Shown: positions 1 to 11,862 of the stretch, piece by piece
How positions within the stretch are numbered: position 1 is the stretch's first letter
How the letters are laid out: each line of letters opens with the position of its first letter
Assembly (NCBI RefSeq): GCF_024298765.1
Contig: NZ_CP101210.1
DNA length: 64,000 bases
Reading direction: 5' to 3' (one strand)
Source of the DNA: Escherichia coli
GTDB taxonomy: Bacteria; Pseudomonadota; Gammaproteobacteria; Enterobacterales; Enterobacteriaceae
Notes under the pieces: generated by a model
Database searches by the model: none
Told to the model about the DNA's origin: nothing
The model's input: the letters and a program-made list of their open reading frames with translations, nothing else
Made by a program: the position numbers and the translations under genes

Positions 1-182
1 CCCCATTCAAGAACAGCAAGCAGCATTGAGAACTTGGGAATCCAGTCTCTCTTCCACCTGCTGATCTGCGACTTATCAACTCCCACAGCTTCCGCTGTCT
101 TCTCAGTTCCAAGCATTGCGATTTTGTTAAGCAACGCACTCTCGATTCGTAGTGCCTCGTTGCGTTTGTTTGCACGAACCAT
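1..182 (-). CDS. cII: Lambda CII transcriptional activator, N-terminal part only (gene runs off window start)
   Basis: Reverse-strand translation from ATG at 182..180 gives MVRANKRNEALRIESALLNKIAMLGTEKTAEAVGVDKSQISRWKRDWIPKFSMLLAVLEW. Confidence 0.9.
   Translation of the reverse strand, partial: MVRANKRNEALRIESALLNKIAMLGTEKTAEAVGVDKSQISRWKRDWIPKFSMLLAVLEW
160..173 (+). promoter_or_regulatory. pRE region: CII-binding direct repeat TTGC-N6-TTGC overlapping cII start
   Basis: ttgcgtttgtttgc on the strand antisense to cII; matches the known CII recognition motif. Confidence 0.6.
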
Positions 183-261
183 ATGTAAGTATTTCCTTAG
201 ATAACAATTGATTGAATGTATGCAAATAAATGCATACACCATAGGTGTGGTTTAATTGGAT

Positions 262-293
262 GCCCTTTTTCAGGGCGGGGATGGGTAAGAGCG
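262..293 (-). promoter_or_regulatory. nutR (boxA CGCTCTTAC, boxB GCCCTGAAAAAGGGC) between cro and cII
   Basis: Reverse complement of 262..293 reads cgctcttacccatccccgccctgaaaaagggc. Confidence 0.75.
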
Positions 294-300
294 GGGTTAT

Positions 301-510
<210 letters not shown>

Positions 511-527
511 TTAGTACATGCAACTAT

Positions 528-591
528 TATCACCGCCAGAGGTAAAATAGTCAACACGCACGGTGTTAGATATTTATCCCTTGCGGTGATA
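528..591. promoter_or_regulatory. Right operator OR1 (528..544), OR2 (551..567), OR3 (575..591) with divergent pR and pRM
   Basis: Three 17-bp sites tatcaccgccagaggta, caacacgcacggtgtta, tatcccttgcggtgata between cro and cI. Confidence 0.88.
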
Positions 592-598
592 GATTTAA

Positions 599-1315
<717 letters not shown>

Positions 1316-1442
1316 TAGGAAGTAAGTTTTATGTTGACGGCACAGTCAACTTGGCATAGATTAATTAAACCAAGCCCAGCCCCGTTCGCAGACAATTGTT
1401 AATATCTGCATAACGGCTCTGGGCTATTTTTTTGGGACTCTT

Positions 1443-2300
1443 ATGAAGAAAGCAGCAATTTTAATTGATGCGGGTTTTTTCATGCAGCGTGTTCATGCTA
1501 CGCATCGTAAACACTTCGCCGAGCATGAACTGACTGCGCAATGCATAATGAAAGTAATATGGTCAATGGTTCTTTCCCATCTTAATGGAAAACGTCAATC
1601 ACAAGAACGTAGGGAACCGCTTGAGCTTTATAGAATTTACTTCTATGACTGTCCACCACTCGACATTCAAACACGCCTTCCACTTCCTGAGCCTGGCAAT
1701 AAGACGCCTGGTCGCAAGAATTTCAAACTCGAAAAATCATATATTCTGAGAACGGAGCTGCATGAAGAGTTAAGAAAAACTCGAAAAACAGCCTTAAGAT
1801 TAGGGAATCTTGTTGATAATAAGCGATGGCAACTAACTACATTCTCCCTTGATGCTCTGATGAAAGGAACGAAAAAATGGGATGAACTGACAAATGATGA
1901 TTTTTACTATGACATCAAACAAAAACAAGTTGATATCAAGCTAGGGATGGATATCACGACTTTAGCTTATGAAAAACTTGTTGATGTAATTGTCCTTGTT
2001 GCTGGGGACTCAGACTTTGTGCCTGCCGCCAAACACGCCAGAATTAAAGGTATTGATTTTATTCTTGATCCACTAAGACAGAATGTTACCCCATCACTGT
2101 CAGAGCACATTGATGGAGTTCAGTCATACAGCTTGATATCAGGACTTGCCGATGCTTTACATGTTGAGCCAGACCCGGCACCTGACTGGTGGGAAGATCG
2201 AAAAAAAGGCAAGCCTAGGGGAAAAAACAATAGCGGTAAACGCAGGTATGGAAACACTCAAGCTGAGTCTGCAAAGAAACATCAAAGAAATAAACGATAA
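1443..2300 (+). CDS. NYN/LabA-like PIN-fold predicted nuclease with Lys/Arg-rich C-terminal tail; occupies the rexA-rexB position
   Basis: 285-aa ORF with ATG start; motifs AAILIDAGFF, VDIKLGMD and VLVAGDSDFVPAAKHARIKGIDFILD resemble NYN acidic motifs; does not match my recollection of RexA; AT-rich. Confidence 0.75.
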   Translation: MKKAAILIDAGFFMQRVHATHRKHFAEHELTAQCIMKVIWSMVLSHLNGKRQSQERREPLELYRIYFYDCPPLDIQTRLPLPEPGNKTPGRKNFKLEKSYILRTELHEELRKTRKTALRLGNLVDNKRWQLTTFSLDALMKGTKKWDELTNDDFYYDIKQKQVDIKLGMDITTLAYEKLVDVIVLVAGDSDFVPAAKHARIKGIDFILDPLRQNVTPSLSEHIDGVQSYSLISGLADALHVEPDPAPDWWEDRKKGKPRGKNNSGKRRYGNTQAESAKKHQRNKR

Positions 2301-2309
2301 TCCCATCAA

Positions 2310-2336
2310 CCCGGCCACCGAGCCGGGTTTTCTTTG
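2310..2336 (+). terminator. Rho-independent terminator after the NYN gene
   Basis: cccggc-caccga-gccggg hairpin followed by ttttctttg. Confidence 0.6.
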
Positions 2337-2491
2337 CCTCACGATCGCCCCACCTAAAAACACATAACCAATTGTATTTATTTTAAAATTAATAGGTGCA
2401 ACTCACTAAACAACGCAATTCTGATCTCTCGATCACCTCCCAAGCCACACAACCCTGCAAAAAATAAATCTATATAAAAAACATACAGATA

Positions 2492-2552
2492 ACCATCTGC
2501 GGTGATAAATTATCTCTGGCGGTGTTGACACAAATACCACTAGCGGTGATAC
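2492..2552 (+). promoter_or_regulatory. Left operator OL3 (2492..2508), OL2 (2511..2527), OL1 (2535..2551) with pL (-35 ttgaca 2525..2530, -10 gatact 2547..2552)
   Basis: aaccatctgcggtgata, tatctctggcggtgttg, taccactagcggtgata upstream of N. Confidence 0.88.
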
Positions 2553-2592
2553 TAAACACACCAGCAGGACGCACTAACCCACATGAAGGTGA

Positions 2593-2623
2593 TGCTCTTA
2601 AAAATTAAGCCCTGAAGAAGGGC
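2593..2623 (+). promoter_or_regulatory. nutL (boxA tgctcttaa, boxB gccctgaagaagggc)
   Basis: gatgctcttaaaaattaagccctgaagaagggc between pL and N. Confidence 0.8.
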
Positions 2624-2781
2624 AGCATTCAAAGCAGAAGGCTTTGGGGTGTGTGATACGAAACGAAACATTGGCCGGAAGTGCGAATCCGGATTAGCTG
2701 CAAATGAGCCAATCGTGGGGTGTTTTCGTTCAGGACTACGACTCCCACACACCACCAAAGCTAACTGACAAGAGAATCCAG

Positions 2782-3679
<898 letters not shown>

Positions 3680-3802
3680 TTAAAAGACAGGCATACTAAT
3701 AAACACTGCACTGTGTATTTATTCCAACGAGTGAATACACGGAGCAATGTCGCTCGTAACTAAACAGGAGCCGACTTGTTCTGATTATTGGAAATCTTCT
3801 TT

Positions 3803-3829
3803 GCCCTCCAGTGTGAGGGCGATTTTTTA
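3803..3829 (+). terminator. Rho-independent terminator upstream of ea10 (tL1-like)
   Basis: gccctc-cagtgt-gagggc hairpin followed by gattttttat. Confidence 0.5.
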
Positions 3830-3848
3830 TCTATGAGGATATGAATAG

Positions 3849-4217
3849 GTGTCAAACATCAAAAAATACATCATTGATTACGACTGGAAAGCATCAATAG
3901 AAATTGAAATCGACCATGACGTAATGACAGAGGAAAAACTTCACCAGATTAATAATTTCTGGTCAGACTCTGAATACCGACTCAATAAACACGGCTCTGT
4001 ATTAAATGCTGTATTAATCATGCTGGCGCAACATGCTCTGCTTATAGCAATTTCAAGCGACTTAAATGCATATGGTGTTGTGTGTGAGTTCGACTGGAAT
4101 GATGGAAATGGTCAGGAAGGATGGCCTCCAATGGATGGTAGCGAAGGAATAAGAATTACCGATATCGATACATCAGGAATATTTGATTCAGATGATATGG
4201 CTATCAAGGCCGCCTGA
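3849..4217 (+). CDS. ea10: Ea10-like protein (122 aa)
   Basis: GTG-initiated ORF MSNIKKYIIDYDWKASIEIEIDHDVMTEEKLHQINNFWSD...; position collinear with lambda ea10. Confidence 0.8.
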   Translation: MSNIKKYIIDYDWKASIEIEIDHDVMTEEKLHQINNFWSDSEYRLNKHGSVLNAVLIMLAQHALLIAISSDLNAYGVVCEFDWNDGNGQEGWPPMDGSEGIRITDIDTSGIFDSDDMAIKAA

Positions 4218-4289
4218 GTGCGGCTTTACCGCATACCAATAACGCTTCACTCGAGGCGTTTTTCGTTATGTATAAATAAGGAGCACACC

Positions 4290-4430
4290 ATGCAATATGC
4301 CATTGCAGGGTGGCCTGTTGCTGGCTGCCCTTCCGAATCTTTACTTGAACGAATCACCCGTAAATTACGTGACGGATGGAAACGCCTTATCGACATACTT
4401 AATCAGCCAGGAGTACCCAAAAATGGATAA
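4290..4430 (+). CDS. cIII: CIII (FtsH inhibitor), 46 aa here because of an in-frame TAA
   Basis: [46 protein letters not shown] then TAA at 4428..4430. Confidence 0.85.
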   Translation: MQYAIAGWPVAGCPSESLLERITRKLRDGWKRLIDILNQPGVPKNG

Positions 4431-4566
4431 AAAACTTATGGCTATCCAGACAAAATTCACTATTGCCACTTTTATTGGCGATGAAAAGATGTTTCGTGAG
4501 GCCGTCGACGCTTATAAAAAATGGATATTAATACTGAAACTGAGATCAAGCAAAAGCATTCACTAA
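4423..4566 (+). CDS. kil: Kil (host-killing, FtsZ inhibitor), 47 aa
   Basis: [47 protein letters not shown] overlapping cIII end and gam start as in lambda. Confidence 0.8.
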
Positions 4567-4937
4567 CCCCCTTTCCTGTTTTCCTAATCAGCCCGGCATT
4601 TCGCGGGCGATATTTTCACAGCTATTTCAGGAGTTCGGCCATGAACGCTTATTACATTCAGGATCGTCTTGAGGCTCAGAGCTGGGCGCGTCACTACCAG
4701 CAGATAGCCCGTGAAGAGAAAGAGGCAGAACTGGCAGACGACATGGAAAAAGGCCTGCCCCAGCACCTGTTTGAATCGCTATGCATCGATCATTTGCAAC
4801 GCCACGGGGCCAGCAAAAAAGCCATTACCCGTGCGTTTGATGACGATGTTGAGTTTCAGGAGCGCATGGCAGAACACATCCGGTACATGGTTGAAACCAT
4901 TGCTCACCATCAGGTTGATATTGATTCAGAGGTATAA
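4521..4937 (+). CDS. gam: Gam (RecBCD inhibitor)
   Basis: 138-aa [64 protein letters not shown]... Confidence 0.95.
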
Positions 4938-4942
4938 AACGG

Positions 4943-5728
4943 ATGAGTACAGCACTCGCAACGCTGGCAGGGAAGCTGGCTGAACGTGTCGGCATGGATT
5001 CTGTCGACCCACAGGAACTGATCACCACTCTTCGCCAGACGGCATTTAAAGGCGATGCCAGCGATGCGCAGTTCATCGCATTGTTGATCGTCGCCAACCA
5101 GTACGGCCTTAATCCGTGGACGAAAGAAATTTACGCCTTCCCTGACAAGCAGAACGGCATCGTTCCGGTGGTGGGCGTTGATGGCTGGTCCCGTATCATC
5201 AATGAAAACCAGCAGTTTGATGGCATGGACTTTGAGCAGGACAATGAATCATGTACATGCCGGATTTACCGCAAGGACCGTAATCATCCGATCTGCGTTA
5301 CCGAGTGGATGGATGAATGCCGCCGCGAACCATTCAAAACCCGCGAAGGCAGAGAAATCACCGGACCGTGGCAGTCGCATCCCAAACGGATGTTACGGCA
5401 TAAAGCCATGATTCAGTGTGCCCGTCTGGCCTTCGGATTTGCTGGTATCTATGACAAGGATGAAGCCGAGCGCATTGTCGAAAATACCGCATACACTGCA
5501 GAACGTCCGCCGGAACGCGACATCACTCCGGTTAACGATGAAACCATGCAGGAGATTAACACTATGCTGATTGCCCTGGACAAAACATGGGATGACGACT
5601 TATTGCCGCTCTGTTCCCAGATATTTCGCCGCGACATTCGCGCATCGTCAGAACTGACACAGGCCGAAGCAATGAAAGCTCTTGGATTCCTGAAACAGAA
5701 AGCCTCTGAACAGAAGGTGGCTGCATGA
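4943..5728 (+). CDS. bet: Bet (Red-beta single-strand annealing protein)
   Basis: 261-aa [69 protein letters not shown]... Confidence 0.97.
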
Positions 5729-6405
5729 CACCGGACATTATCCTGCAGCGTACCGGGATCGACGTGAGAGCTGTCGAACAGGGGGATGATGCATGGCACA
5801 AATTACGGCTCGGCGTCATCACCGCTTCAGAAGTTCACAACGTGATAGCAAAGCCCCGCTCAGGAAAGAAGTGGCCTGACATGAAAATGTCCTACTTCCA
5901 CACCCTGCTGGCTGAGGTTTGCACCGGTGTGGCTCCGGAAGTTAACGCTAAGGCGCTGGCCTGGGGAAAACAGTACGAGAACGACGCCAGAACCCTCTTT
6001 GAGTTCACTTCCGGCGTTAATGTTACTGAATCCCCGATCATCTATCGCGACGAAAGTATGCGCACCGCCTGCTCTCCCGATGGTTTATGCAGTGACGGCA
6101 ACGGCCTTGAACTGAAATGCCCGTTTACCTCCCGGGATTTCATGAAGTTCCGGCTCGGTGGTTTCGAGGCCATAAAATCGGCTTACATGGCCCAGGTGCA
6201 GTACAGCATGTGGGTGACGCGAAAAGATGCCTGGTACTTTGCCAACTATGACCCACGAATGAAGCGTGAAGGCCTGCATTATGTCGTGGTTGAGCGGGAT
6301 GAAAATTACATGGCGAGTTTTGACGAGATGGTGCCGGAGTTCATCGAAAAAATGGACGAGGCACTGGCTGAAATTGGTTTTGTATTTGGGGAGCAATGGC
6401 GATGA
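5725..6405 (+). CDS. exo: Exo (lambda exonuclease, Red-alpha)
   Basis: 226-aa [68 protein letters not shown]... Confidence 0.97.
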
Positions 6406-6584
6406 CGCATCCTCACGATAATATCCGGGTAGGCGCGATCACTTTCGTCTACTCCATTACAAAGCGAGGCTGGGTATTTCCCGGCCTTTCTGTTATCAGA
6501 AATCCCCTGAAAGCACAGCGGCTGGCTGAGGAGATAAATAATAAACGGGGAGCTGTATGCACAAAGCATCTCCCGTTGAGTTAA
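6396..6584 (+). CDS. Lambda orf60a-like small protein
   Basis: [58 protein letters not shown]... immediately after exo. Confidence 0.6.
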
Positions 6585-6748
6585 GAACGAGTATCGAGAT
6601 GGCACATAGCCTCGCTCAAATTGGAGTCAGGTTTGTGCCAATACCAGTAGAAACAGACGAAGAATTTCATACGTTAGCCGCATCCCTTTCACAAAAGCTG
6701 GAAATGATGGTGGCGAAAGCAGAAGCAGATGAGAGAGACCAGGTATGA
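6557..6748 (+). CDS. Lambda orf63-like small protein
   Basis: 63-aa [66 protein letters not shown]. Confidence 0.6.
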   Translation: MHKASPVELRTSIEMAHSLAQIGVRFVPIPVETDEEFHTLAASLSQKLEMMVAKAEADERDQV

Positions 6749-6824
6749 CAACCACTGAATGCATTTTTCTGGCAGCGGGCTTCATATTCTGTGTGCTTAT
6801 GCTTGCCGACATGGGGCTTGTTCA

Positions 6825-7040
6825 ATGACACCTCAGCAAGAAAACGCCCTTCGCAGCATTGCCCGTCAGGCTAATTCTGAAATCAAAAAAGCCAGACAGC
6901 AGTTTCCGGATAAAAACGTCGATGACATTTGCCGTAGCGTACTAAAGAAGCACCGCGAAACGGTAACGCTGATGGGATTCACACCGACTCATTTAAGCCT
7001 GGCGATCGGCATGTTGAACGGCGTCTTTAAGGAACGGTGA
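6825..7040 (+). CDS. Lambda orf61-like small protein
   Basis: ORF from ATG 6825 MTPQQENALRSIARQANSEIKKARQQFPDKNVDDICRSVLKKHRETVTLMGF...; start choice uncertain. Confidence 0.5.
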   Translation: MTPQQENALRSIARQANSEIKKARQQFPDKNVDDICRSVLKKHRETVTLMGFTPTHLSLAIGMLNGVFKER

Positions 7041-7138
7041 ACATGAAAAGCAAAATCATCAGGGAGCTACAGGCTCCTTTTTTATTATTCGCATTCACCC
7101 TCAAGCGTATTAACCAACAATTCAGGGATTAATGAAAG

Positions 7139-7360
7139 ATGGCAGACATCATTGATTCAGCATCAGAAATTGAAGAATTACAGCGCAACACAGCAATAAA
7201 AATGCGCCGCCTGAACCACCAGGCTATATCTGCCACTCATTGTTGTGAGTGTGGCGATCCGATAGATGAACGAAGACGCTTGGCCGTTCAGGGTTGTCGG
7301 ACTTGTGCAAGTTGCCAGGAGGATCTGGAACTTATCAGTAAACAGAGAGGTTCGAAGTGA
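7139..7360 (+). CDS. TraR/DksA-family C4 zinc-finger protein (lambda orf73-like)
   Basis: 73-aa ORF with CCECGDPIDERRRLAVQGCRTCASC four-cysteine finger. Confidence 0.8.
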   Translation: MADIIDSASEIEELQRNTAIKMRRLNHQAISATHCCECGDPIDERRRLAVQGCRTCASCQEDLELISKQRGSK

Positions 7361-7905
7361 GCGAAATTAACTCTCAGGCACTGCGTGAGGCGGCAGTAGC
7401 AATTGAAACAGTAGCAACACCTCAAAAATTGCTGGCATTTCGTATGAAAGTCACACCTCAGGTTGTGCTGGCTCTACTGGATGAACGAGATGCATTAAAT
7501 GAACGCCTAGCCGAACTGGAGGCTGATTTAGCAGGGCTGGCCGAAGACCACCAGAAAGCGACTGAGTCAATTAAGCAGGCTGATGCAGCTGTTAAGTTGG
7601 CACACGAGAAGTTTTCGGCGCTGGCGGCGGAGAATGAGCTGGCTCGTAAAGCAGTTCAGGAATTCTGCGATGTTGTTGGCGACAGCACCGAGGTTATCTG
7701 CGAGGAGATTGGGAGAGATGGTGTTCTGGTTATTTTGGAGGCCATGAAGGCAACAGGAAATATGCCAGCCACCGATGCTTTCCTGGCTGAAGTACGGGCG
7801 CAGGGGGTGGAGATGATGCGCGAACATCCATCAATCAAACTTTGCTCTTTGACGCACATATGTGATGAGTTAGCCGCCCAGCTTCGCAAAGGAGGCAACC
7901 AGTGA
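7357..7905 (+). CDS. ea22: Ea22-like protein (182 aa, coiled-coil)
   Basis: 182-aa ORF collinear with lambda ea22; MSEINSQALREAAVAIETVATPQKLLAF... Confidence 0.7.
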   Translation: MSEINSQALREAAVAIETVATPQKLLAFRMKVTPQVVLALLDERDALNERLAELEADLAGLAEDHQKATESIKQADAAVKLAHEKFSALAAENELARKAVQEFCDVVGDSTEVICEEIGRDGVLVILEAMKATGNMPATDAFLAEVRAQGVEMMREHPSIKLCSLTHICDELAAQLRKGGNQ

Positions 7906-8035
7906 CTGGACATGCAGCAATCCTCGACATGTGCTGTGGCAGTCGCATGTTCTGGTTAGATAAGAATGACGAACGGGCGAGATAAGCGATCGGTTAAGTG
8001 CTATAGTAATGCGCTTTTGTATTTATGGAGTGAAT

Positions 8036-8734
8036 ATGAAAAATATCCTACTGGCATCATTGTTAGTGGCATCGCCGGGTGCATTTGCAGCCAGCTTTGA
8101 CTGCCAAAAGGCTTCGACAGCAATCGAACATAAAATCTGCGATAACGAACGTCTGTCAAAATTAGACGAACAGCTTAGCTCTGCCTATTCTAGTGCCCTC
8201 AAAGGAAACCCAGAGAACGCAGACACCCTAAAAATGGTTCAACGTCAGTGGGTAAATATGCGTGGAAAACTCACTGATAATAAGGCTCTGGAGCTGGCTT
8301 ATCTTATCCAAATTAATGGCCTCAAAGGTTTGGGGAGTTCAGTCAGCGTAACAGCGGCCAATGACATACCCACGTCGGCGCAGAAACATTCTAAAGAGCA
8401 GGAAGATACAAGTAAGGCAGAAGCTAAGTCGGTCAAGAACGGCAATAAGCTAACCTTAGAGTCATTCCGAGCTAAATATGTAGAAGTAGATGGTGAGTAT
8501 TACAGCACGACATCCATTCCTAGAGGCAGTTCGTTCTTGTTCACTTGCGCTAGTCGTATTGCTGATGACCAAGTGAATATTTGGAAGAAACAGGCAGCCA
8601 AAGAGGGCAAAATCGACCTATTCTTTGAGGTTGAGAATCACTTACACACGGCTATGTTGAACGCCAATTTTCAGAAGTTGAATTCAGACCCTGCCAAAAG
8701 AGGTATTTGTAATCTGATTAACGCAGTGCCGTAA
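8036..8734 (+). CDS. Secreted protein with signal peptide and DUF1311/LprI-like N-terminal domain; replaces ea8.5
   Basis: MKNILLASLLVASPGAFAASFDCQKASTAIEHKICDNERLSKLDEQLSSAYSSALKG...QRQW; GGAG RBS before ATG 8036. Confidence 0.7.
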   Translation: MKNILLASLLVASPGAFAASFDCQKASTAIEHKICDNERLSKLDEQLSSAYSSALKGNPENADTLKMVQRQWVNMRGKLTDNKALELAYLIQINGLKGLGSSVSVTAANDIPTSAQKHSKEQEDTSKAEAKSVKNGNKLTLESFRAKYVEVDGEYYSTTSIPRGSSFLFTCASRIADDQVNIWKKQAAKEGKIDLFFEVENHLHTAMLNANFQKLNSDPAKRGICNLINAVP

Positions 8735-8744
8735 GTAAATTTAG

Positions 8745-8775
8745 GGCCACAGTTGTGGCCTTAAATATTTTTTTC
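8745..8775 (+). terminator. Putative rho-independent terminator after the DUF1311 gene
   Basis: ggccac-agtt-gtggcc hairpin followed by T-rich run. Confidence 0.45.
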
Positions 8776-8970
8776 AGCCTTTTCTTATTTGTAATAAGCA
8801 GTACTTGGTAGTGCTTATAAAACAGAATAAAAAATATATGACTTTGGCGATTACCCAGTAAAGATATTCGAAATAAATGTAAATATCGACAATGAATAAC
8901 TATCCTCGCACTCGCGGGGATTTCTTTTATCTGAACTCGCTACGGCGAGTTTTTTTTATGGAGATGATAA

Positions 8971-9138
8971 ATGCACTTCCGAGTCACAGGTGAATGGAAT
9001 GGAGAACCATTCAACAGAGTTATCGAAGCCGAGAACATCAGCGACTGCTATGACCACTGGATGCTGTGGGCGCAGATAGCACATGCAGACGTAACCAATA
9101 TTCGAATTGAAGAACTGAAAGAACACCAAGCCGCCTGA
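8971..9138 (+). CDS. Lambda orf55-like small protein (below 60-aa ORF-track cutoff)
   Basis: MHFRVTGEWNGEPFNRVIEAENISDCYDHWMLWAQIAHADVTNIRIEELKEHQAA; collinear with lambda orf55 upstream of xis; followed by gccgcc..ggcggc hairpin + T-run. Confidence 0.65.
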   Translation: MHFRVTGEWNGEPFNRVIEAENISDCYDHWMLWAQIAHADVTNIRIEELKEHQAA

Positions 9139-9177
9139 TGGCGGTTTTTTCTTGCGTGTAATTGCGGAGACTTTGCG

Positions 9178-9396
9178 ATGTACTTGACACTTCAGGAGTG
9201 GAACGCACGCCAGCGACGCCCAAGAAGCCTTGAAACAGTTCGTCGATGGGTACGCGAGTGCAGGATATTCCCTCCTCCGGTTAAGGATGGAAGAGAGTAT
9301 CTGTTCCACGAATCAGCGGTAAAGGTTGACTTAAATCGACCAGTAACAGGTAGCCTTTTGAAGAGGATCAGAAATGGGAAGAAGGCGAAGTCATGA
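9178..9396 (+). CDS. xis: Excisionase Xis
   Basis: 72-aa ORF MYLTLQEWNARQRRPRSLETVRRWVRECRIFPPPVKDGREYLFHESAVKVDLNRPVTGSLLKRIRNGKKAKS. Confidence 0.96.
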   Translation: MYLTLQEWNARQRRPRSLETVRRWVRECRIFPPPVKDGREYLFHESAVKVDLNRPVTGSLLKRIRNGKKAKS

Positions 9397-10444
9397 GCGC
9401 CGGGATTTACCCCCTAACCTTTATATAAGAAACAATGGATATTACTGCTACAGGGACCCAAGGACGGGTAAAGAGTTTGGATTAGGCCGAGACAGGCGAA
9501 TCGCAATCACTGAAGCTATACAGGCCAACATTGAGTTATTTTCAGGACACAAACACAAGCCTCTGACAGCGAGAATCAACAGTGATAATTCCGTTACGTT
9601 ACATTCATGGCTTGATCGCTACGAAAAAATCCTGGCCAGCAGAGGAATCAAGCAGAAGACACTCATAAATTACATGAGCAAAATTAAAGCAATAAGGAGG
9701 GGTCTGCCTGATGCTCCACTTGAAGACATCACCACAAAAGAAATTGCGGCAATGCTCAATGGATACATAGACGAGGGCAAGGCGGCATCAGCCAAGTTAA
9801 TCAGATCAACACTGAGCGATGCATTCCGAGAGGCTATAGCTGAAGGCCATATAACAACAAACCCGGTCGCAGCCACTCGCGCTGCAAAATCAGAGGTAAG
9901 GAGATCAAGACTTACGGCTGACGAATACCTGAAAATTTATCAAGCAGCAGAATCATCACCATGTTGGCTTAGACTTGCAATGGAACTGGCTGTTGTTACC
10001 GGGCAGCGAGTTGGTGATTTATGCGAAATGAAGTGGTCTGATATCGTAGATGGATATCTTTATGTCGAGCAAAGCAAAACAGGCGTAAAAATTGCCATCC
10101 CAACAACATTGCATGTTGATGCTCTCGGGATATCAATGAAGGAAACACTTGATAAATGCAAAAAGATTCTTGGCGGAGAAACCATAATTGCATCTACTCG
10201 TCGTGAACCGCTTTCATCCGGCACAGTATCAAGGTATTTTATGCGCGCACGAAAAGCATCAGGTCTTTCCTTCGAAGGGGATCCGCCTACCTTTCACGAG
10301 TTGCGCAGTTTGTCTGCAAGACTCTATGAGAAGCAGATAAGCGATAAGTTTGCTCAACATCTTCTCGGGCATAAGTCGGACACCATGGCATCACAGTATC
10401 GTGATGACAGAGGCAGGGAGTGGGACAAAATTGAAATCAAATAA
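9374..10444 (+). CDS. int: Integrase Int (tyrosine recombinase)
   Basis: 356-aa ORF MGRRRSHERRDLPPNLYIRNNGYYCYRDPRTGKEFGLGRDRRIAITEAIQANIELFSG... overlapping xis end. Confidence 0.97.
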   Translation: MGRRRSHERRDLPPNLYIRNNGYYCYRDPRTGKEFGLGRDRRIAITEAIQANIELFSGHKHKPLTARINSDNSVTLHSWLDRYEKILASRGIKQKTLINYMSKIKAIRRGLPDAPLEDITTKEIAAMLNGYIDEGKAASAKLIRSTLSDAFREAIAEGHITTNPVAATRAAKSEVRRSRLTADEYLKIYQAAESSPCWLRLAMELAVVTGQRVGDLCEMKWSDIVDGYLYVEQSKTGVKIAIPTTLHVDALGISMKETLDKCKKILGGETIIASTRREPLSSGTVSRYFMRARKASGLSFEGDPPTFHELRSLSARLYEKQISDKFAQHLLGHKSDTMASQYRDDRGREWDKIEIK

Positions 10445-10532
10445 TGATTTTATTTTGACTGATAGTGACCTGTTCGTTGCAACAAATTGATAAGCAATGC
10501 TTTTTTATAATGCCAACTTAGTATAAAAAAGC
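10445..10532. other. attL: P' arm plus 15-bp core (10518..10532, ttagtataaaaaagc = reverse complement of GCTTTTTTATACTAA)
   Basis: Sequence downstream of int matches lambda P' arm and core, followed by bacterial attB flank aggcttca. Confidence 0.9.
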
Positions 10533-10578
10533 AGGCTTCAACGGATTCATTTTTCTATTTCATAGCCCGGAGCAACCT

Positions 10579-11862
10579 GTGAACACATTTTCAGTTTCCC
10601 GTCTGGCGCTGGCATTGGCTTTTGGCGTGACGCTGACCGCCTGTAGCTCAACACCGCCCGATCAACGTCCTTCTGATCAAACCGCGCCTGGTACCTCTTC
10701 TCGCCCGATTCTGTCGGCAAAAGAAGCGCAGAATTTCGATGCTCAACACTATTTTGCATCCCTGACACCAGGTGCGGCAGCGTGGAATCCTTCCCCGATT
10801 ACCCTGCCTGCACAACCTGACTTTGTTGTCGGCCCGGCGGGTACTCAAGGTGTAACGCATACCACGATTCAGGCGGCGGTAGATGCGGCAATTATCAAGC
10901 GTACCAACAAGCGCCAGTATATTGCCGTGATGCCTGGTGAGTATCAGGGAACGGTATATGTCCCTGCCGCTCCGGGTGGAATTACTCTGTACGGTACAGG
11001 TGAAAAACCGATTGATGTGAAGATTGGGCTTTCCCTTGATGGGGGCATGAGCCCTGCCGACTGGCGTCACGACGTCAACCCGCGCGGCAAATATATGCCA
11101 GGTAAACCAGCGTGGTATATGTACGATAGCTGCCAGAGCAAACGCAGCGACAGTATCGGCGTTCTCTGCTCTGCGGTCTTCTGGTCACAAAACAATGGAC
11201 TGCAACTGCAAAACCTGACCATCGAAAACACGCTGGGCGATAGCGTAGATGCGGGTAACCATCCGGCGGTGGCACTGCGTACTGATGGTGACCAGGTACA
11301 GATTAACAACGTTAACATTCTCGGTCGTCAGAACACCTTCTTTGTCACCAACAGCGGTGTGCAGAACCGTCTGGAAACGAATCGTCAGCCGCGTACGCTG
11401 GTGACCAACAGCTACATTGAAGGGGATGTGGATATCGTTTCTGGTCGCGGCGCAGTGGTGTTCGATAATACCGAATTCCGCGTGGTGAACTCACGTACTC
11501 AGCAAGAAGCGTATGTGTTTGCACCGGCTACGCTGTCCAACATTTACTACGGTTTCCTCGCCGTAAACAGTCGTTTCAATGCTTCCGGTGATGGCGTGGC
11601 GCAACTGGGCCGCTCGCTGGATGTTGATGCCAATACCAACGGTCAGGTGGTGATCCGTGATAGCGCCATCAACGAAGGTTTTAACACAGCCAAACCGTGG
11701 GCTGATGCGGTGATTTCCAATCGTCCATTCGCGGGTAACACCGGCAGCGTTGATGATAACGACGAAGTACAGCGCAATCTGAATGACACTAACTACAACC
11801 GCATGTGGGAATACAATAACCGCGGCGTGGGTAGCAAAGTGGTTGCAGAGGCGAAGAAGTAG
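10579..11862 (+). CDS. ybhC: YbhC outer-membrane lipoprotein (pectinesterase-like acyl-CoA thioesterase)
   Basis: 427-aa ORF with lipoprotein signal MNTFSVSRLALALAFGVTLTACSS; GTG start. Confidence 0.9.
   Translation: MNTFSVSRLALALAFGVTLTACSSTPPDQRPSDQTAPGTSSRPILSAKEAQNFDAQHYFASLTPGAAAWNPSPITLPAQPDFVVGPAGTQGVTHTTIQAAVDAAIIKRTNKRQYIAVMPGEYQGTVYVPAAPGGITLYGTGEKPIDVKIGLSLDGGMSPADWRHDVNPRGKYMPGKPAWYMYDSCQSKRSDSIGVLCSAVFWSQNNGLQLQNLTIENTLGDSVDAGNHPAVALRTDGDQVQINNVNILGRQNTFFVTNSGVQNRLETNRQPRTLVTNSYIEGDVDIVSGRGAVVFDNTEFRVVNSRTQQEAYVFAPATLSNIYYGFLAVNSRFNASGDGVAQLGRSLDVDANTNGQVVIRDSAINEGFNTAKPWADAVISNRPFAGNTGSVDDNDEVQRNLNDTNYNRMWEYNNRGVGSKVVAEAKK

What the first reader, a model, noticed from the sequence alone, without database searches (positions are those of the whole stretch)
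7906..8970. ea8.5 slot carries a secreted DUF1311/LprI-like protein
Flanks (ea22 upstream, orf55-xis-int downstream) are collinear with lambda, but the intervening segment is about 500 bp longer and encodes a 232-aa protein with a Sec signal peptide (MKNILLASLLVASPGAFA) and an N-terminal Cys-x11-Cys...QRQW region typical of DUF1311 (lysozyme-inhibitor LprI N-terminal domain). It is followed by hairpin terminators and AT-rich spacer. A periplasmic cargo protein at this moron site suggests lysogenic conversion (envelope protection or virulence-related).
Basis: partly seen in the sequence, partly recalled or inferred. Interest (0 to 1): 0.5.

Follow-up and report, generated by a model that had tools for sequence, protein, structure and literature searches.

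The report
Exported DUF1311 phage protein in lambda's ea8.5 slot
A lambda-like prophage carries, where lambda has ea8.5, a self-contained gene for an exported two-domain protein; its database name "lysozyme inhibitor" is not supported by its anatomy, its relatives sit mostly in lytic T4-like phages, and its function is still unknown.

Summary
Window 8036-8734 (+) encodes an intact 232-aa protein with a typical Sec signal peptide (cleavage AFA|AS). Behind it come a DUF1311/LprI helical domain, a disordered linker and a second confidently folded domain.

The gene is a cassette with a conserved extended -10 box and its own terminator. It lies between a 5' stub of a methyltransferase gene and a 3' stub of an ASCH gene, in the slot where lambda has ea8.5. 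The phage part of the window is 100% identical to phage Lambda_ev099, where RefSeq already calls this gene "lysozyme inhibitor LprI family protein".

- The protein has no MliC-type lysozyme-inhibitor domain and no lipobox.
- The C-terminal domain has no structural relative outside its own family.
- About 150 of the 154 phage records with relatives are lytic T4-like or jumbo phages, so lysogenic conversion is not the natural reading.
- dN/dS (0.07-0.28 in the two domains, about 1 in the linker) shows a working protein.

Best guess, at about 0.4: a periplasmic binder or antagonist of incoming cell-wall-cleaving enzymes that protects the cell the phage occupies. This is a modestly interesting, uncharacterised variant of a known domain family.

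The parts
7357..7905 (+). Upstream flank: an ead/Ea22-family gene (182 aa). It is a different allele from lambda ea22.
   Evidence: PHROG 368/492. RefSeq name in ev099. Only residues 1-45 align to lambda Ea22, at 53% identity.
7902..7985 (+). 5' stub of a class I SAM-dependent methyltransferase gene (GTG, 27 codons VTGHAAILDMCCGSRMFWLDKNDERAR, then TAA). This is the left scar of the replacement.
   Evidence: Window 7906-7990 matches the first codons of intact methyltransferase genes in other prophages at 92-97%. Translation.
7967..8774 (+). Mobile cassette (promoter-like box, gene, terminator) shared with SSU5-like phage-plasmids.
   Evidence: 83% DNA identity to Salmonella phage SSU5. In the 124 plasmid records that cover at least 80% of the query, the listed matches all begin at query position 62-74 (window 7967-7979) and end at 869 (window 8774).
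7999..8007 (+). Candidate extended -10 promoter element TGCTATAGT, 37 nt before the ATG. There is no good -35.
   Evidence: Conserved as TGATATAGT in SSU5. TGnTAnnnT also lies 37-45 nt upstream in the loci of the distant relatives P0054 and P0065. The strict consensus scan did not call a promoter here.
8036..8734 (+). CDS of 232 aa plus stop. Signal peptide 8036-8089; DUF1311 domain (residues 19-102) 8090-8341; disordered linker (103-136) 8342-8443; family-specific C-terminal domain (137-232) 8444-8731.
8739..8774 (+). The cassette's own intrinsic terminator (12-bp stem, GGGCCACA/TGTGGCCT core, then T7).
   Evidence: -17.6 kcal/mol, z -4.4. The SSU5 copy has the same stem core.
8775..8840 (+). 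AT-rich spacer found in neither lambda nor SSU5. It contains a small hairpin (8795-8817) with no T tract.
8841..8899 (+). 3' stub of an ASCH-domain gene (...DFGDYPVKIFEINVNIDNE*). This is the right scar of the replacement.
   Evidence: 88-90% identical to the end of intact ASCH genes in HK022, 933W and the BL21 lambdoid remnant, which occupy the same slot.
8902..8952 (+). Two conserved lambdoid hairpin terminators upstream of orf55. The HK022 record annotates this stretch as tL4.
   Evidence: Near-identical to lambda from about 8897 onward..
8971..9138 (+). Downstream flank: homologue of lambda orf55 (lambdap35), followed by xis (9178-9396), int (9374-10444) and the attL core (10518-10532).
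   Evidence: PHROG 676 E 5.5e-40..

Best explanation
Shown:
- Window 8036-8734 is a functional gene for a Sec-exported, soluble periplasmic protein. The mature form is 214 aa, 23.6 kDa.
- It is built from an N-terminal DUF1311 helical domain, a freely evolving disordered linker, and a second, strongly constrained domain (short helix, beta-hairpin, three long helices).
- Two invariant cysteines lie in each domain (C23/C35 and C171/C225).
- The gene travels as a self-contained cassette. That cassette replaced earlier cargo (a methyltransferase gene on the left, an ASCH gene on the right) in the ea8.5 slot of a lambda-like prophage.
- The same family occurs in SSU5-like phage-plasmids, in a recombinase island, and above all in lytic T4-like phages.

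Inferred:
- The cysteine pairs form DsbA-made disulfides.
- In the prophage the cassette is transcribed from its own extended -10 promoter and stopped by its own terminator, so that xis and int are not read through. During lytic growth it is also read from pL.
- In the periplasm the protein binds and antagonises a peptidoglycan glycan-cleaving enzyme that arrives from outside, such as a tail-associated lysozyme or transglycosylase of a superinfecting phage, or a muramidase-type T6SS effector. This would protect the wall of the cell the phage occupies. Functionally that is analogous to T4 Spackle or to T6SS immunity proteins.
For: Gene reality and constraint:
- Full-length PHROG 4675 match.
- All 36 copies are intact.
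- dN/dS against the phage-plasmid alleles is 0.16-0.23 overall: 0.10-0.28 in the N domain, 0.07-0.09 in the C domain, and about 0.8-1.2 in the linker.

Export:
- Signal-peptide features, and no other hydrophobic segment.
- The signal peptide and four Cys are invariant from E. coli prophage copies to Aeromonas and Klebsiella T4-like phage copies.

Fold:
- AF2 gives pLDDT above 90 in both domains.
- The N domain matches DUF1311 structures.

Cassette:
- Boundaries, terminator and conserved -10 box.
- Scars on both sides.

Phage-centred distribution:
-.

Link between DUF1311 and peptidoglycan glycosidases, from papers:
- EHEC Etsi4, a DUF1311 protein, neutralises the periplasmic toxicity of the effector Etse4 (PMC12981562).
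- LprI-domain proteins sit next to lysozyme-like or LysM T6SS effectors in Salmonella Dublin and Pantoea (PMC8867033 and PMC9796082; PMC12135965).
- ScwA alters the levels of MltD and other hydrolases (PMC7933661).
- A P. aeruginosa DUF1311 mutant is depleted under a beta-lactam (cefepime or meropenem), alongside peptidoglycan-recycling genes (PMC7038268).

Precedent for a small helical, disulfide-bonded periplasmic phage protein that blocks a tail lysozyme:
- Spackle (PMC7677548).
Against: - No target is identified, and nothing here shows binding to any hydrolase.
- The protein has no detectable similarity to Etsi4 (BLASTP E 8.6), and no effector gene lies next to it.
- It has no fold or sequence match to Spackle or to any known lysozyme inhibitor.
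- The most constrained part is the C-terminal domain, whose function is entirely unknown.
- Close relatives of the DUF1311 domain pair with many unrelated C-terminal partners (ankyrin, SH3, CHAT, trypsin, OmpH). The domain may therefore be a generic periplasmic module rather than an inhibitor.
- Klebsiella phage Marfa carries both Spackle and a family member, so the two are not simple substitutes.
- The promoter is only a motif match, and the strict scan did not call it.
Confidence: 0.4

Rival explanations
1. Inhibitor of host (animal) lysozyme that gives the lysogen envelope protection or virulence.
For: - Pfam and RefSeq name the domain after M. tuberculosis LprI.
- The protein is predicted to be periplasmic.
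- The gene sits in a prophage moron slot.
Against: - LprI also carries an MliC domain. MliC has been shown to be sufficient for lysozyme resistance, and there is no such evidence for the DUF1311 domain (PMC7933661).
- This protein has no MliC domain, no beta-barrel and no lipobox.
- Deleting scwA, which encodes the one LprI-domain-only protein tested, did not change lysozyme sensitivity.
- Most relatives are in lytic phages of Aeromonas, Klebsiella and E. coli, where protection from animal lysozyme makes little sense.
Confidence: 0.1
2. Modulator of the cell's own peptidoglycan hydrolases, in the manner of ScwA. It would tune wall turnover or the timing of phage lysis rather than block foreign enzymes.
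For: - ScwA, a periplasmic, disulfide-stabilised LprI-domain protein, changes the levels of MltD, Slt, AmiC and others, and its overproduction lyses cells (PMC7933661).
- In T4-like phages the gene sits among genes of the replication cluster, which are early genes in T4 by general knowledge.
Against: - The architecture differs. ScwA has the LprI domain at its C-terminus in a 275-aa protein, whereas here the domain is N-terminal and followed by an unrelated domain.
- No homology to ScwA was tested or seen beyond the shared Pfam domain.
- A role in lysis timing would be expected near the lysis genes, not in the early-left operon.
Confidence: 0.15
3. A periplasmic exclusion or entry-blocking factor unrelated to peptidoglycan. 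The orphan C-terminal domain would bind a receptor, an inner-membrane DNA-entry component or another envelope protein, and DUF1311 would serve only as a scaffold.
For: - The C-terminal domain is the most constrained part (omega 0.07-0.09) and is specific to this phage-borne family.
- The closest DUF1311 relatives carry many different C-terminal partners.
- The family is restricted to phages and mobile elements.
Against: - There is no similarity to known exclusion proteins, and nothing in PADLOC.
- There is no membrane anchor.
- The N domain is also conserved across the whole family.
Confidence: 0.2
4. Non-functional passenger or decaying pseudogene left by mosaic recombination.
For: It is flanked by two gene stubs in a recombination-prone slot.
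Against: - All 36 copies are intact.
- Purifying selection is strong in both domains and the linker is neutral.
- The architecture is conserved from lambdoid to T4-like phages.
Confidence: 0.02

Closest known systems
DUF1311 / LprI domain family (Pfam PF07007; crystal structures 3gi7 and 6ar7)
   Same: The N-terminal domain (residues about 19-102) matches the HMM and the fold. It has the signal peptide, the ASFDC...IC cysteine pair and the QRxW motif.
   Different: - Only model positions 1-70 of 106 match.
- The second cysteine pair of the family consensus (RNxCxDxxC) is missing.
- The domain is fused to a C-terminal domain found nowhere else.
M. tuberculosis LprI and the MliC/PliC/Ivy lysozyme inhibitors
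   Same: Shares the DUF1311 domain with LprI, and both are exported.
   Different: There is no MliC domain, no beta-barrel and no lipoprotein signal. Lysozyme inhibition is therefore not implied.
[not shown]
   Same: Small Sec-exported proteins of the same Pfam family. Orphan copies can be kept without the effector.
   Different: - No pairwise similarity to Etsi4.
- No neighbouring effector.
- There is an extra C-terminal domain.
- The gene is carried by phages, mostly lytic ones.
T4 Spackle (gene 61.3), periplasmic inhibitor of the gp5 tail lysozyme
   Same: A phage-encoded, signal-peptide-bearing helical protein. Spackle has a disulfide, and this protein has conserved cysteine pairs. In T4-like phages the family member lies in the same replication-gene cluster.
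   Different: - Not homologous by sequence or fold.
- It lies between genes 61 and 56, not in the sp position between 41 and 61.
- Phage Marfa has both proteins.
Salmonella ScwA
   Same: Soluble periplasmic LprI-domain protein of low GC. ScwA is stabilised by two disulfides, and this protein has two conserved cysteine pairs.
   Different: The domain order is reversed, ScwA is chromosomal rather than phage-borne, and no shared C- or N-terminal partner domain was found.
Lambda ea8.5 and other cargo of the same slot (ASCH-domain gene in HK022/933W, SAM methyltransferase)
   Same: Same position between the ea22-family gene and orf55-xis-int, in the pL operon.
   Different: No sequence relation to ea8.5. 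Of the slot cargoes identified here (ea8.5, an ASCH-domain protein, a SAM-dependent methyltransferase), this is the only one I examined for export, and it has an export signal; the others were not checked.

Membership tests
DUF1311 / LprI domain (PF07007) | Significant match to the Pfam HMM | tested here: met
   i-E 2.2e-5, 25.2 bits, residues 23-78. The match is partial, covering model positions 1-70 of 106. Homologues carry a precomputed PF07007 hit.
DUF1311 / LprI domain (PF07007) | Helical-bundle fold of solved DUF1311 proteins | tested here: met
   [not shown]
DUF1311 / LprI domain (PF07007) | Four conserved cysteines (two pairs) within the domain | tested here: not met
   Only C23 and C35 are present. 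The consensus RNxCxDxxC pair is absent in this whole subfamily.
Lysozyme inhibitors (LprI full-length, MliC/PliC) | MliC/PliC beta-barrel domain (PF09864) | tested here: not met
   No Pfam hit other than LprI. The AF2 C-terminal domain is a beta-hairpin plus three helices.
Lysozyme inhibitors (LprI full-length, MliC/PliC) | Lipoprotein signal (lipobox Cys) | tested here: not met
   The cleavage motif is AFA|AS. The first Cys is at +5 and is preceded by SFD.
Lysozyme inhibitors (LprI full-length, MliC/PliC) | Inhibition of lysozyme activity | not testable with these tools
   This needs purified protein. Deleting scwA, which encodes the LprI-domain-only protein ScwA, left lysozyme sensitivity unchanged (PMC7933661).
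T6SS immunity protein (DUF1311 type) | Encoded next to a cognate effector or inside a T6SS island | tested here: not met
   The neighbours are an Ea22-family gene and orf55-xis-int. In other elements the neighbours are phage replication genes or a restriction-modification system.
T6SS immunity protein (DUF1311 type) | Sequence similarity to a tested immunity protein (Etsi4) | tested here: not met
   BLASTP E 8.6 against Sakai ECs_0213.
Phage moron | Extra gene between genes that are adjacent or differently filled in related phages | tested here: met
   Lambda, HK022/BL21 and C311 fill the slot with ea8.5, an ASCH gene or a methyltransferase gene. Stubs of the last two remain here.
Phage moron | Own terminator | tested here: met
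   8739-8766 plus T7, retained in the SSU5 copy.
Phage moron | Own promoter | tested here: inconclusive
   A conserved TGnTATAGT lies 37 nt upstream, but there is no -35 and the strict scan did not call it.
Phage moron | Expression from the repressed prophage | not testable with these tools
   Needs RNA-seq, 5' RACE or a reporter in a lysogen.
T4 Spackle-type superinfection exclusion | Homology to Spackle | tested here: not met
   [not shown]
T4 Spackle-type superinfection exclusion | Binds and inhibits a tail lysozyme, or excludes superinfecting phage | not testable with these tools
   Needs plating assays and binding assays.

The most novel reading that the evidence does not exclude
PHROG 4675 proteins (DUF1311 domain plus a structurally orphan, disulfide-bearing C-terminal domain) are a previously unrecognised, widely shared class of phage periplasmic guard. 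They would be used by lytic T4-like phages, lambdoid prophages and phage-plasmids alike to neutralise incoming muralytic enzymes from rival phages or T6SS attackers. The orphan domain would provide a new inhibitor fold or the target specificity.
Probability: 0.2. Interest if true: 0.65.

Novelty: new variant of a known kind. Interest (0 to 1): 0.35.

Why it matters
The practical lesson concerns annotation. More than 100 complete E. coli genomes, more than 120 phage-plasmid records and about 150 phage records carry relatives of this gene. Many of the E. coli and plasmid copies are labelled "lysozyme inhibitor LprI family protein", a function that the protein's anatomy and the one direct test of an LprI-only protein do not support.

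Biologically, it is unusual for an exported protein family under strong constraint to be shared by lytic T4-like phages, temperate lambdoid phages and phage-plasmids. That spread points to a general phage need in the periplasm. If the target is a wall-cleaving enzyme of competitors, this would be a new exclusion or immunity module with a new domain. If not, the family is still a tractable unknown, because it is small, soluble and modelled with high confidence.

Tried and rejected
- C-terminal domain as a degenerate second DUF1311 repeat: rejected. hhalign probability is 0.3%.
- Known anti-phage defence protein: no PADLOC hit.
- NCBIfam: only sub-threshold noise, namely CpoB, an A1S_1983 colistin-resistance family and mevalonate kinase.
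- PDB by sequence or profile: nothing.
- Profile search with the C-terminal domain alone: no new relatives.
- Genomic context of the closest single-domain relatives: the contigs were too short to be useful.
- Genome-collection scan: four weak loci matching the N domain only. The one examined (L053) is a 440-aa Serratia protein of a different architecture.
- The idea that the T4-like homologue sits in the spackle slot: I held it briefly from memory of the T4 map, then rejected it. The annotated Marfa and Aes508 records show the gene between genes 61 and 56, with spackle separately between 41 and 61.
- Structured RNA in the region: no Rfam match in 7300-10700.
- Homology to lambda ea8.5: none at the DNA level.

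Full report
**What is there**

Window 8036-8734 (+) is an intact ORF of 232 codons. GGAG lies 5 nt before the ATG. The product starts MKNILLASLLVASPGAFA|ASFDC. It has one Lys in the n-region, the only hydrophobic stretch of the protein at residues 3-13, and Ala at -3 and -1. There is no lipobox and no twin arginine. The mature protein is 214 aa, 23.6 kDa, pI 8.3. SignalP was not available, so the signal peptide is a rule-based call. The same pattern is kept in every relative aligned, down to 26% identity.

Pfam finds only PF07007 (LprI/DUF1311): i-E 2.2e-5, residues 23-78, model positions 1-70 of 106. PHROGs places the whole protein in phrog_4675, of unknown function, at E 3.5e-94. Three other PHROGs share only the first ~80-135 residues. 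NCBIfam, PADLOC, and PDB by sequence give nothing usable.

**Where it sits**

Window 1-10532 is 100% identical to Escherichia phage Lambda_ev099. About 71% of it aligns to lambda at 97%. The attL core GCTTTTTTATACTAA is at 10518-10532 and ybhC follows, so this is a prophage at the lambda attachment site.

The stretch between the Ea22-family gene and the orf55 homologue is 1065 bp. In lambda it is 561 bp. Homology to lambda resumes only at about 8897, just before two conserved hairpins (8902-8921 and 8933-8952) that an HK022 record annotates as tL4. The upstream gene is an Ea22-family member, but it resembles lambda Ea22 only over its first 45 residues.

**How it got there**

Two scars flank the gene.
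- Left: 7902-7985 is the first 27 codons of a class I SAM-dependent methyltransferase gene, ending in a stop. Intact versions exist in other prophages.
- Right: 8841-8899 is the last 19 codons of an ASCH-domain gene, which fills this slot in HK022, 933W and the BL21 lambdoid remnant.

Between the scars, window 7967-8774 is 83% identical to Salmonella phage SSU5. It is also 80-90% identical to 124 large, mostly non-mobilizable plasmid records, that is SSU5-like phage-plasmids of Enterobacter, E. coli and Citrobacter; the listed matches share the same right boundary (8774) and left boundaries within 12 nt of each other.

The shared unit has three parts:
- 69 nt of upstream sequence with a conserved extended -10 box (TGCTATAGT, 37 nt before the ATG);
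- the gene;
- a strong hairpin plus T7 (-17.6 kcal/mol, z -4.4).

GC drops to 0.36-0.45 across the insert. This is classic moron anatomy. The promoter, however, is only a motif, and the strict scan did not call it.

All lambdoid copies in IMG/VR share the methyltransferase stub, which points to a single insertion that later spread by flanking recombination. The segment is present in 106 of 5426 complete E. coli genomes. One example is another prophage at ybhC with a different surrounding mosaic.

**Is it a working gene?**

All 36 copies checked are intact. Against the phage-plasmid alleles (about 80% amino-acid identity), dN/dS is as follows:

| Region | dN/dS |
|---|---|
| Whole protein | 0.16-0.23 |
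| N domain | 0.10-0.28 |
| Linker | about 0.8-1.2 |
| C domain | 0.07-0.09 |

That is the signature of two functional domains joined by a free tether. It removes the pseudogene objection.

**Structure**

AF2 with a 55-sequence alignment gives two confident domains and a disordered linker at residues 103-133.

The C domain (137-232), modelled alone, has pLDDT 92 and pTM 0.84. It consists of a short helix, a beta-hairpin carrying the conserved DGxxYST motif, and three long helices. C171, N209 and C225 are invariant. Three results define its status:
- It is not a beta-barrel.
- It is not a second DUF1311 repeat (hhalign probability 0.3%).
- Foldseek against AFDB50 finds it only in its own family, in Salmonella, Yersinia and Serratia.

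A profile of the C domain finds no further relatives.

**Who else has it**

The exhaustive representative search gives 5040 hits. Among the 150 listed, nearly all match only the N domain, and only a handful are full-length relatives. Sixty of the closest longer N-domain relatives carry LprI repeats or assorted partners (ankyrin, SH3, CHAT, trypsin, OmpH). None carries MliC.

The surprise is in the phage collection. Of 154 phage records with a relative, only ev099 and SSU5 (two records each) are temperate. The others are lytic T4-like or jumbo myoviruses:
- Aeromonas (65 records);
- Klebsiella (24 records);
- E. coli RB49-like Krischvirus, where only the N domain is present.

In Aes508, in Marfa and in a metagenomic T4-like contig, the gene lies between the primase gene (61) and the dCTPase gene (56), inside the replication cluster. 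The Aes508 and Marfa proteins keep the signal peptide, all four cysteines, G153 and N209. Another relative sits in a serine-recombinase island beside an EcoRV-like restriction-modification system.

**What it probably does**

The database name comes from M. tuberculosis LprI. That protein also carries an MliC domain, which has been shown to be sufficient for lysozyme resistance; no such evidence exists for the DUF1311 domain. The only LprI-domain-only protein tested, Salmonella ScwA, is periplasmic and disulfide-stabilised and gives no lysozyme resistance. It does alter the levels of MltD and other wall hydrolases (PMC7933661).

Other DUF1311 proteins are T6SS immunity proteins against periplasmic wall-targeting effectors:
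- shown for EHEC Etsi4 (PMC12981562);
- inferred by adjacency in Salmonella Dublin and Pantoea.

A P. aeruginosa DUF1311 mutant is depleted under a beta-lactam (cefepime or meropenem) together with wall-recycling genes.

The common thread is interaction with enzymes that cut the glycan strands of peptidoglycan. Taken together with the phage-centred distribution, this makes a periplasmic binder or antagonist of incoming muralytic enzymes the best-supported guess. Such a protein would protect the cell the phage occupies, working like T4 Spackle (PMC7677548) or like a T6SS immunity protein.

This is an inference at about 0.4. Several results count against it:
- The protein has no similarity to Etsi4.
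- It has no similarity to Spackle.
- No effector gene lies nearby.
- Marfa carries both Spackle and this gene.
- The most constrained domain is of unknown function.

The rivals are an inhibitor of host lysozyme (0.1), a ScwA-like modulator of endogenous hydrolases (0.15), an exclusion factor unrelated to peptidoglycan and driven by the C domain (0.2), and a dead gene (0.02).

**Verdict**

The gene is already annotated in RefSeq and catalogued in PHROGs, so its existence is not new. Four things are new here:
- the name is misleading;
- the second domain is an orphan fold;
- the cassette and its scars can be delimited precisely;
- the family is mainly a lytic-phage family.

Interest is modest (0.35). 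It would be higher if a muralytic target or a new exclusion mechanism were shown.

Noticed in passing
window 7902-7985: Truncated 5' end of a class I SAM-dependent methyltransferase gene (27 codons, then a stop). It starts at a GTG that overlaps the stop codon of the Ea22-family gene. Intact versions are found in other prophages and in some plasmids.
   Followed up: yes
window 8841-8899: Truncated 3' end (last 19 codons) of an ASCH-domain gene. That gene occupies this slot in HK022, 933W and the BL21 lambdoid remnant.
   Followed up: yes
window 7357-7905: The 'ea22' gene has the same length as lambda ea22 (182 aa) but aligns to it only over residues 1-45 (53% identity). It is a mosaic allele of the Ea22 family.
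   Followed up: partly
window 8036-8731, compared with L002, L039, L040, L045 and L046: Synonymous divergence from the phage-plasmid alleles is uneven. dS is about 0.3-0.5 in the N domain and about 1.0-1.3 in the C domain. This suggests intragenic recombination, with the two halves having different histories.
   Followed up: no
window 8795-8817: An imperfect hairpin (-8.7 kcal/mol, z -3.2) with no T tract lies in the AT-rich spacer. The spacer matches neither lambda nor SSU5, and its origin and role are unknown.
   Followed up: partly
window 8009-8035: An in-frame upstream ATG gives a 241-aa form, and the representative of a 318-member cluster is called at this length (P0001). It lies at or before the predicted transcription start of the cassette promoter and has no Shine-Dalgarno sequence, so the 232-aa start is more likely.
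   Followed up: partly
L056 4486-5172 (Aeromonas phage Aes508), L057 4501-5259 (Klebsiella phage Marfa), L008 6001-6657: In T4-like lytic phages the family member sits between the primase gene (61) and the dCTPase gene (56). Marfa also has an annotated spackle gene between 41 and 61. E. coli RB49-like phages carry a version of about 130 aa with the N domain only.
   Followed up: partly
L009 2172-7972: A distant family member (P0077) lies in a small island with two serine recombinases, apparently inserted in a Mg-chelatase/ComM-like gene. It sits beside an EcoRV-like endonuclease, a methyltransferase and an HTH controller protein.
   Followed up: no
window 1-10532 and 10518-10532: The whole phage part of the window is 100% identical to phage Lambda_ev099. 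The attL core lies at 10518-10532, next to ybhC. The host part of the window (10.6-64 kb) was not examined.
   Followed up: partly
window 8956-9309 (-): A 117-aa antisense ORF overlaps orf55 and xis. It is probably spurious and was not tested.
   Followed up: no
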